Source: Escherichia coli | GTDB taxonomy: Bacteria > Pseudomonadota > Gammaproteobacteria > Enterobacterales > Enterobacteriaceae | DNA length: 64,000 bases | Direction: 5' to 3' (one strand) | NCBI RefSeq assembly: GCF_044324785.1 | Contig: NZ_CP172127.1 | Shown: positions 22,272 through 22,585 of the stretch, piece by piece | Position numbering within the stretch: position 1 is the stretch's first letter | Layout: each line of letters begins with the position of its first letter | Program-made: the position numbers and the translations under genes | Notes under the pieces: generated by a model | Database searches by the model: none | Told to the model about the DNA's origin: nothing | What the model saw: the letters and a program-made list of their open reading frames with translations, nothing else

Positions 22272-22280
22272 TTGGGGCCA
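22272..22280. repeat. fimS 9-bp inverted repeat (fimA-proximal)
   Basis: TTGGGGCCA. Confidence 0.93.
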
Positions 22281-22536
22281 TTTTGACTCATAGAGGAAAG
22301 CATCGCGCACAAACTTTTTCAGTTTATTTGTTGGCTTAATATTCTATTGTTATCTTTATTTATAGATTTTTATATTGCATGAGGTGGTTTTTGGAGAGAA
22401 GAATGAGGAAGATGCGTCGAGCCACAGAAACGTTAGCTTTACATTTGGCGGAGGTGATGTGAAATTAATTTACAAGAGAAATAATTTACATATCAAACAG
22501 TTAGATGCTTTTTATCGTTTTTTAATATTTTTATGC

Positions 22537-22566
22537 TTGAGAAAAAATACGTAACTTATTTATGAT
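22537..22566 (+). promoter_or_regulatory. Sigma70-type promoter inside fimS, oriented towards fimE (away from fimA)
   Basis: -35 TTGAGA (22537-22542), 18-bp spacer, -10 TATGAT (22561-22566), ending ~10 bp before the inverted repeat; no comparable promoter on the fimA-facing end. Confidence 0.5.
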
Positions 22567-22576
22567 ATGGACAGTT

Positions 22577-22585
22577 TGGCCCCAA
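22577..22585. repeat. fimS 9-bp inverted repeat (fimE-proximal)
   Basis: TGGCCCCAA, reverse complement of the left repeat. Confidence 0.93.

What the first reader, a model, noticed from the sequence alone, without database searches (positions are those of the whole stretch)
22272..22585. fimS switch appears to be captured in the phase-OFF orientation
The only good sigma70-like promoter inside the 314-bp element (TTGAGA, 18-bp spacer, TATGAT) lies on the plus strand, ends ~10 bp before the fimE-proximal inverted repeat and fires towards fimE. fimA is on the minus strand on the other side. In the ON state this promoter would be next to the fimA-proximal repeat and face fimA. The assembly therefore seems to represent the non-fimbriate state.
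Basis: partly seen in the sequence, partly recalled or inferred. Interest (0 to 1): 0.4.

Follow-up and report, generated by a model that had tools for sequence, protein, structure and literature searches.

The report
Type 1 fimbrial switch, OFF orientation
This is the well-known 314-bp invertible promoter switch of the E. coli type 1 fimbriae operon, assembled with its promoter pointing away from the fimbrial genes, which is the ordinary "OFF" state seen in about 95% of complete E. coli genomes.

Summary
Window 22272-22585 is the canonical E. coli fimS element. It is 314 bp long and bounded by exact 9-bp inverted repeats (TTGGGGCCA). It lies between fimE and fimA on the minus strand and is 99% identical to K-12 MG1655.

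The best sigma70-like site (TTGAGA-18-TATGAT, 22537-22566, + strand) ends 10 bp before the fimE-proximal repeat and faces fimE.

Three tests that do not depend on the promoter guess all call it OFF:
- In-silico OL4/OL20 + BstUI gives 188+539 bp (published OFF 187+539).
- In-silico Inv-1/Inv-2 + SnaBI gives 442+161 bp (published OFF 440+161).
- The window is colinear with the UTI89 reference, which is published as OFF.

The caveat is that OFF is not a special property of this strain. Of 5426 complete E. coli genomes, 4456 carry the window's orientation and 247 the flipped one. Sister isolates Z142-4 and Z142-7 differ only by this inversion. FimB and FimE are 100% identical to K-12 and the element is full length, so the switch is not locked. 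The assembly reports the majority orientation of the sequenced culture.

This is already known biology and of low interest.

The parts
22272..22585 (.). fimS invertible element, 314 bp, assembled in the phase-OFF orientation
   Evidence: Bounded by exact 9-bp inverted repeats. 99% identical to and colinear with MG1655 and UTI89 fimS. In-silico BstUI and SnaBI assays give the OFF patterns.
22272..22280 (+). IRR, the fimA-proximal 9-bp inverted repeat (TTGGGGCCA)
   Evidence: Exact match. It is an inversion breakpoint in the Z142-4 versus Z142-7 comparison.
22577..22585 (-). IRL, the fimE-proximal 9-bp inverted repeat (TTGGGGCCA on the minus strand)
   Evidence: Exact match. It is an inversion breakpoint in the Z142-4 versus Z142-7 comparison.
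22537..22566 (+). Candidate PfimA: -35 TTGAGA (22537-22542), 18-bp spacer, -10 TATGAT (22561-22566). It faces fimE in this orientation.
   Evidence: 10/12 consensus match and the best site in the element. The hexamers are identical in MG1655 and UTI89. Reviews place PfimA inside fimS, directed away from fimA in OFF (PMC2647292, PMC9993118). The mapped start site itself could not be read in the held library.
22304..22307 (.). Unique BstUI site (CGCG) used in the published orientation assay, at the fimA-proximal end here
   Evidence: Gives 188+539 bp with primers OL4/OL20, against the published OFF pattern of 187+539 (PMC9993118).
22548..22553 (.). Unique SnaBI site (TACGTA) used in the published orientation assay, inside the promoter spacer
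   Evidence: Gives 442+161 bp with primers Inv-1/Inv-2, against the published OFF pattern of 440+161 (PMC4374849).
22321..22463 (-). C-rich, G-poor stretch on the fimE-sense strand. It looks like a Rho-utilisation site and is exposed to the fimE transcript only in this orientation.
   Evidence: C/G ratio is 2.5-4.5 in 78-nt windows as assembled and 0.24-0.5 when flipped. This fits the published Rho-dependent terminator that shortens fimE mRNA only in OFF (PMC2647292). The link to this stretch is inferred, not shown here.
22633..23229 (-). fimE, tyrosine recombinase for ON-to-OFF switching, intact
   Evidence: 198 aa, 100% identical to MG1655 FimE.
23706..24308 (-). fimB, bidirectional tyrosine recombinase, intact
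   Evidence: 200 aa, 100% identical to MG1655 FimB.
21604..22152 (-). fimA, major fimbrial subunit and first gene of fimAICDFGH. It is disconnected from its promoter in this orientation.
   Evidence: ORF. Annotated as fimA at the equivalent position in strain N3. The ATG aligns with the MG1655 fimA start.
15557..21539 (-). fimI, fimC, fimD, fimF, fimG and fimH, the rest of the operon, all open reading frames
   Evidence: ORFs of the expected lengths. Annotation of the colinear strain N3 locus.

Best explanation
Window 22272-22585 is the E. coli type 1 fimbrial phase switch fimS, recorded in the phase-OFF orientation. The fimAICDFGH promoter sits at the fimE-proximal end of the element and fires toward fimE, so fimA has no promoter and the sequenced cells were mostly non-fimbriate. 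The tyrosine recombinases FimB (both directions) and FimE (ON to OFF) invert the element by recombining the two 9-bp repeats. Both recombinases and the element are intact here, so the state is reversible. The assembly reports the majority orientation of the culture. OFF is the expected majority because FimE drives ON-to-OFF switching. In this orientation the fimE transcript also reads into a C-rich stretch of fimS. The literature places a Rho-dependent terminator in fimS that shortens fimE mRNA in OFF cells.

Shown here: the anatomy, the orientation, the intact recombinases and the population frequency of the two states. Inferred from the literature: promoter identity, recombinase roles and Rho termination.
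For: - Anatomy: exact 9-bp inverted repeats, a 314-bp element, and the gene order fimB-fimE-fimS-fimA on the minus strand.
- The best sigma70-like site is on the + strand, 10 bp from the fimE-proximal repeat.
- In-silico OL4/OL20 + BstUI gives 188+539 bp as assembled and 434+293 bp when flipped. Published values are OFF 187+539 and ON 433+293 (PMC9993118).
- In-silico Inv-1/Inv-2 + SnaBI gives 442+161 bp as assembled and 198+405 bp when flipped. Published values are OFF 440+161 and ON 403+198 (PMC4374849).
- The window is colinear with the UTI89 reference, stated to be OFF in PMC6458436, and with MG1655.
- 4456 complete genomes are colinear with the window's orientation and 247 with the flipped construct.
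- Isolates Z142-4 and Z142-7 share identical flanks and differ by an inversion exactly at the repeats.
- FimE and FimB are 100% identical to K-12.
- The fimE-sense strand has C/G up to 4.5 as assembled and about 0.3 when flipped. This fits the OFF-specific Rho terminator described in PMC2647292.
Against: - The primary paper that mapped the fimA transcription start (Olsen and Klemm 1994) is not in the held library. Calling TTGAGA/TATGAT the mapped PfimA therefore rests on my own recollection plus its position.
- The promoter scan is not statistically enriched over shuffles.
- The simulated amplicons are 1-2 bp longer than the published sizes (727 vs 726 bp; 603 vs 601 bp). That is within strain indel or counting differences.
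- No reads are available, so the fraction of ON cells in the sequenced culture is unknown.
Confidence: 0.95

Rival explanations
1. The switch is actually phase ON. The real fimA promoter would be a different sequence at the fimA-proximal end of the element, and TTGAGA/TATGAT would be a chance match in A+T-rich DNA.
For: Promoter-like matches are no more frequent here than in shuffled sequence, and a 9/12 site on the minus strand (22496-22467) does face fimA.
Against: The BstUI and SnaBI assays are calibrated against fimbriation and fimA-lacZ phenotypes, not against promoter predictions. Both give OFF fragment sizes for the sequence as assembled. The window is colinear with the UTI89 reference, published as OFF.
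Confidence: 0.01
2. The switch is locked OFF by mutation, so the strain is permanently non-fimbriate. Known examples are the deletion in the switch of enterohaemorrhagic strains and recombinase loss in Shigella and ST131.
For: The switch is in OFF. There are 6 substitutions inside fimS relative to MG1655, and I did not test their effect.
Against: The element is the full 314 bp and both 9-bp repeats are exact. FimB and FimE are 100% identical to K-12. A fimS that is 99.8% identical occurs in both orientations in the sister isolates Z142-4 and Z142-7. A flipped construct built from the window's own sequence has a 100% match in strain VCSW7. All structural fim genes are open.
Confidence: 0.03
3. 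The orientation is an assembly artefact. The assembler chose arbitrarily and the culture was mostly ON or evenly mixed.
For: Invertible elements are heterogeneous in cultures, and an assembly keeps only one orientation (PMC6458436). No reads are available to check.
Against: The repeats are only 9 bp, so every read that crosses a junction resolves the orientation and a consensus assembler reports the majority. OFF is the majority outcome in 4456 of 4703 callable complete genomes.
Confidence: 0.04

Closest known systems
E. coli K-12 / UPEC fimS type 1 fimbrial phase switch (FimB/FimE tyrosine-recombinase invertible promoter)
   Same: Same 314-bp length, the same 9-bp inverted repeats, the same position between fimE and fimA, 99% nucleotide identity, and identical FimB and FimE proteins. 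It has the same orientation as the MG1655 and UTI89 reference sequences.
   Different: Only 6 substitutions inside the element relative to MG1655 and a 1-bp indel in the fimE-fimS spacer. There is no structural difference.
Locked-OFF fim switches (EHEC switch deletion; Shigella and ST131 fimB inactivation)
   Same: [quoted passage not shown]
   Different: The element here is full length and both recombinase genes are intact, so nothing points to locking.
Other Fim-type invertible promoters in E. coli (ipuS, hyxS)
   Same: Short inverted repeats flank a promoter-bearing segment that is inverted by tyrosine recombinases (PMC6458436, PMC6083910).
   Different: Those elements lie at other loci, have different repeats (7 bp for ipuS) and control different genes. 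This element is fimS itself.

Membership tests
fimS invertible switch of the type 1 fimbrial operon | Element of 314 bp bounded by 9-bp inverted repeats | tested here: met
   TTGGGGCCA at 22272-22280 (+) and 22577-22585 (-), with a span of 314 bp. The definition is in PMC2647292.
fimS invertible switch of the type 1 fimbrial operon | Lies immediately upstream of fimA and downstream of fimB and fimE, which encode tyrosine recombinases | tested here: met
   Gene order on the minus strand. FimB and FimE are 100% identical to K-12.
fimS invertible switch of the type 1 fimbrial operon | Sequence homology to the reference fimS | tested here: met
   99% identity to MG1655 and UTI89 across the element and its flanks.
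fimS invertible switch of the type 1 fimbrial operon | Found in both orientations in nature, with breakpoints at the repeats | tested here: met
   4456 genomes carry one orientation and 247 the other. Z142-4 and Z142-7 differ only by an inversion at the repeats.
fimS invertible switch of the type 1 fimbrial operon | Carries the fimA promoter | tested here: inconclusive
   A conserved 10/12 sigma70-like site is present, and reviews place PfimA inside fimS. The mapped start site could not be read, and transcription cannot be tested with these tools.
Phase-OFF orientation of fimS | BstUI digest of the OL4/OL20 amplicon gives about 539+187 bp (ON gives 433+293) | tested here: met
   In silico 539+188 bp as assembled and 434+293 bp when flipped (PMC9993118).
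Phase-OFF orientation of fimS | SnaBI digest of the Inv-1/Inv-2 amplicon gives about 440+161 bp (ON gives 403+198) | tested here: met
   In silico 442+161 bp as assembled and 405+198 bp when flipped (PMC4374849).
Phase-OFF orientation of fimS | Colinear with a reference sequence that is published as OFF | tested here: met
   Colinear with UTI89 NC_007946.1, which PMC6458436 describes as OFF.
Phase-OFF orientation of fimS | Cells lack type 1 fimbriae and fimA transcript | not testable with these tools
   This needs agglutination, electron microscopy or RNA data from this strain.
Locked-OFF fim switch | Deletion within fimS or its repeats, or loss of fimB/fimE | tested here: not met
   The element is the full 314 bp with exact repeats. 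Both recombinases are intact.

The most novel reading that the evidence does not exclude
The most novel reading still open has two parts. First, the six substitutions inside this strain's fimS relative to K-12 could fall in Lrp, IHF or Fis binding regions and shift the ON/OFF bias of this lineage. Second, the promoter in its OFF position could drive a functional antisense transcript across the 3' end of fimE that adds to the known orientation-dependent control of FimE. Neither idea is supported by any result here. They are simply not excluded.
Probability: 0.05. Interest if true: 0.3.

Novelty: already known. Interest (0 to 1): 0.06.

Why it matters
It matters little beyond correct annotation. 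The fim switch has been a textbook example of phase variation by DNA inversion since 1985. An assembly showing OFF is the norm, as it is for MG1655, UTI89 and about 95% of complete E. coli genomes. The practical point is a caution. The orientation in a consensus assembly is a snapshot of the culture that was sequenced. It should not be read as a strain's capacity to make type 1 fimbriae, and here that capacity appears intact. The tally of 4456 OFF to 247 ON across complete genomes is a useful baseline for anyone scoring this switch in assemblies.

Tried and rejected
- I tried to read the primary mapping of the fimA promoter and the paper on the fimE Rho terminator. Olsen and Klemm 1994, Abraham et al. 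1985 (PMC390624), Hinde et al. 2005 (PMC1317003) and a Schwan review (PMC3638964) are all absent from the held library.
- A text search for the -10 hexamer together with fimA and fimE found nothing relevant.
- A search for a published antisense RNA from fimS (FimR) found only indirect mentions.
- Rfam and tRNA scans of the whole window found nothing.
- I considered and rejected three alternatives: a phase-ON reading with the promoter elsewhere, a locked-OFF mutant, and an assembler artefact. The reasons are given under the rival explanations.
- One script failed because freshly fetched loci were not yet visible to Python. I made that comparison with DNA alignment instead.

Full report
**What is at the coordinates**

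The window carries the E. coli type 1 fimbrial gene cluster on its minus strand. The genes are fimB (24308..23706), fimE (23229..22633), fimA (start codon at 22152, ending near 21604), and then fimI, fimC, fimD, fimF, fimG and fimH down to 15557. A colinear, 99.8%-identical locus in strain N3 is annotated the same way.

Between fimE and fimA the 9-mer TTGGGGCCA occurs exactly twice in the whole 64-kb window. One copy is at 22272-22280 on the + strand and the other at 22577-22585 on the - strand. Together they bound a segment of exactly 314 bp. That length, those repeats and that position define fimS (PMC2647292). The region aligns at 99% identity, without rearrangement, to MG1655 NC_000913.3.

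**The promoter observation**

The consensus scan finds TTGAGA (22537-22542), an 18-bp spacer and TATGAT (22561-22566) on the + strand. This is a 10/12 match, and it ends 10 bp before the repeat at 22577.

Two qualifications apply:
- Two weaker 9/12 sites also lie inside the element.
- The total of three sites is not above what shuffles of this 68% A+T region give (2.2 +/- 1.5).

The hexamer match is therefore suggestive but could not settle the orientation by itself. I could not read the paper that mapped the fimA start site. Calling this site the mapped PfimA rests on my own recollection of Olsen and Klemm 1994. It also rests on its conservation in MG1655 and UTI89 and on review figures that place PfimA inside fimS, facing away from fimA in OFF.

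**Tests that do not depend on the promoter**

Published orientation assays are calibrated against phenotype, so I simulated them on the window.

| Assay | As assembled | With 22272-22585 flipped | Published OFF | Published ON | Sources |
|---|---|---|---|---|---|
| OL4/OL20 + BstUI | 188+539 bp | 434+293 bp | 187+539 bp | 433+293 bp |; PMC9993118, |
| Inv-1/Inv-2 + SnaBI | 442+161 bp | 198+405 bp | 440+161 bp | 403+198 bp |; PMC4374849, |

- Primers OL4 and OL20 match the window exactly at 22118-22137 and 22824-22844. They give a 727-bp product, against the published 726 bp.
[quoted passage not shown] They give a 603-bp product, against the published 601 bp.
- As a third test, PMC6458436 states that the UTI89 reference genome has fimS in OFF. 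The UTI89 sequence is colinear with the window across the whole switch.

All three tests agree that the window is phase OFF.

**How unusual this is**

It is not unusual. A 551-bp query spanning the switch and both flanks matches colinearly (at least 80% coverage in one piece) in 4456 of the 4719 complete E. coli genomes that have the locus. The same query with the 314 bp flipped matches colinearly in 247. About 95% of callable assemblies are therefore OFF, including MG1655 and UTI89.

The orientation is not a lineage trait either. Isolates Z142-4 and Z142-7 come from one hospital and have chromosome sizes within 2 bp of each other. Their flanks are identical and their switches are inverted, with breakpoints exactly at the 9-bp repeats.

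**Is the switch functional here?**

- FimE and FimB are 100% identical to the K-12 proteins.
- The repeats are exact and the element is full length.
- The structural genes are open.
- The flipped version of this very sequence exists at 100% identity in another strain, VCSW7.

Nothing suggests a locked switch. The six substitutions relative to MG1655 inside fimS were not tested for any effect on binding of host factors.

**Mechanism**

The steps that come from the literature are marked as such.

- The FimB and FimE tyrosine recombinases recombine the two repeats. FimB works in both directions, and FimE works from ON to OFF (literature).
- In OFF, PfimA is carried to the fimE side and fimAICDFGH has no promoter. 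The anatomy is shown here. The transcriptional consequence comes from the literature.
- The literature also places a Rho-dependent terminator in fimS that shortens fimE mRNA only in OFF (PMC2647292). Consistent with that, the strand read by the fimE transcript is C-rich and G-poor across about 22463-22321 as assembled (C/G 2.5-4.5 in 78-nt windows). It becomes G-rich (C/G 0.24-0.5) if the element is flipped. This is a compositional fit, not a demonstration.

**Verdict**

The feature is the textbook fim switch in its most commonly assembled state. It is already known, and its interest is low. The useful caveat is that a consensus assembly records the majority orientation of a phase-variable population. 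It does not show whether the strain can make fimbriae.

Noticed in passing
window 21559-21593 (-): An exact 35-nt match to the MG1655 small RNA FimR2, in the fimA-fimI intergenic region. Rfam has no model that reports it at gathering threshold.
   Followed up: partly
window 59098-62889 (-): A 1263-aa SIR2-domain protein that matches the PADLOC Dsr1 anti-phage defence model end to end (score 1607).
   Followed up: partly
window 35240-41200 (+) and 52060-58349 (+): Two separate type I restriction-modification systems. One is hsdM-hsdS-hsdR with an EcoR124-type R subunit. The other is hsdR-hsdM-hsdS with an EcoEI-type R subunit that carries an N-terminal DUF4145. A 228-aa ORF after the second system (58371-59057) has no Pfam or PADLOC match.
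   Followed up: partly
window 30381-33742 (-) and 41620-42567 (-): A McrBC-like restriction pair (a McrBC domain protein plus an AAA_5 ATPase) and an AbiEii toxin homologue (PADLOC 8e-128). With the systems above they form a defence island beyond nanC/nanM. Strain N3 carries a different cargo at the same place: large helicases and a 1642-aa methyltransferase.
   Followed up: partly
L003 (Z142-4) and L004 (Z142-7), positions 1560-2000: Two complete genomes of near-identical hospital isolates differ at this locus only by the fimS inversion. This is a natural ON/OFF pair in the public database.
   Followed up: yes
window 22586-22632: The fimE-fimS spacer has a run of 6 A where MG1655 has 7. This 1-bp indel, together with the 6 substitutions inside fimS and 2 more in the fimS-fimA spacer relative to MG1655, makes up the differences across the aligned region. 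It does not explain why the simulated amplicons are 1-2 bp longer than the published sizes.
   Followed up: no
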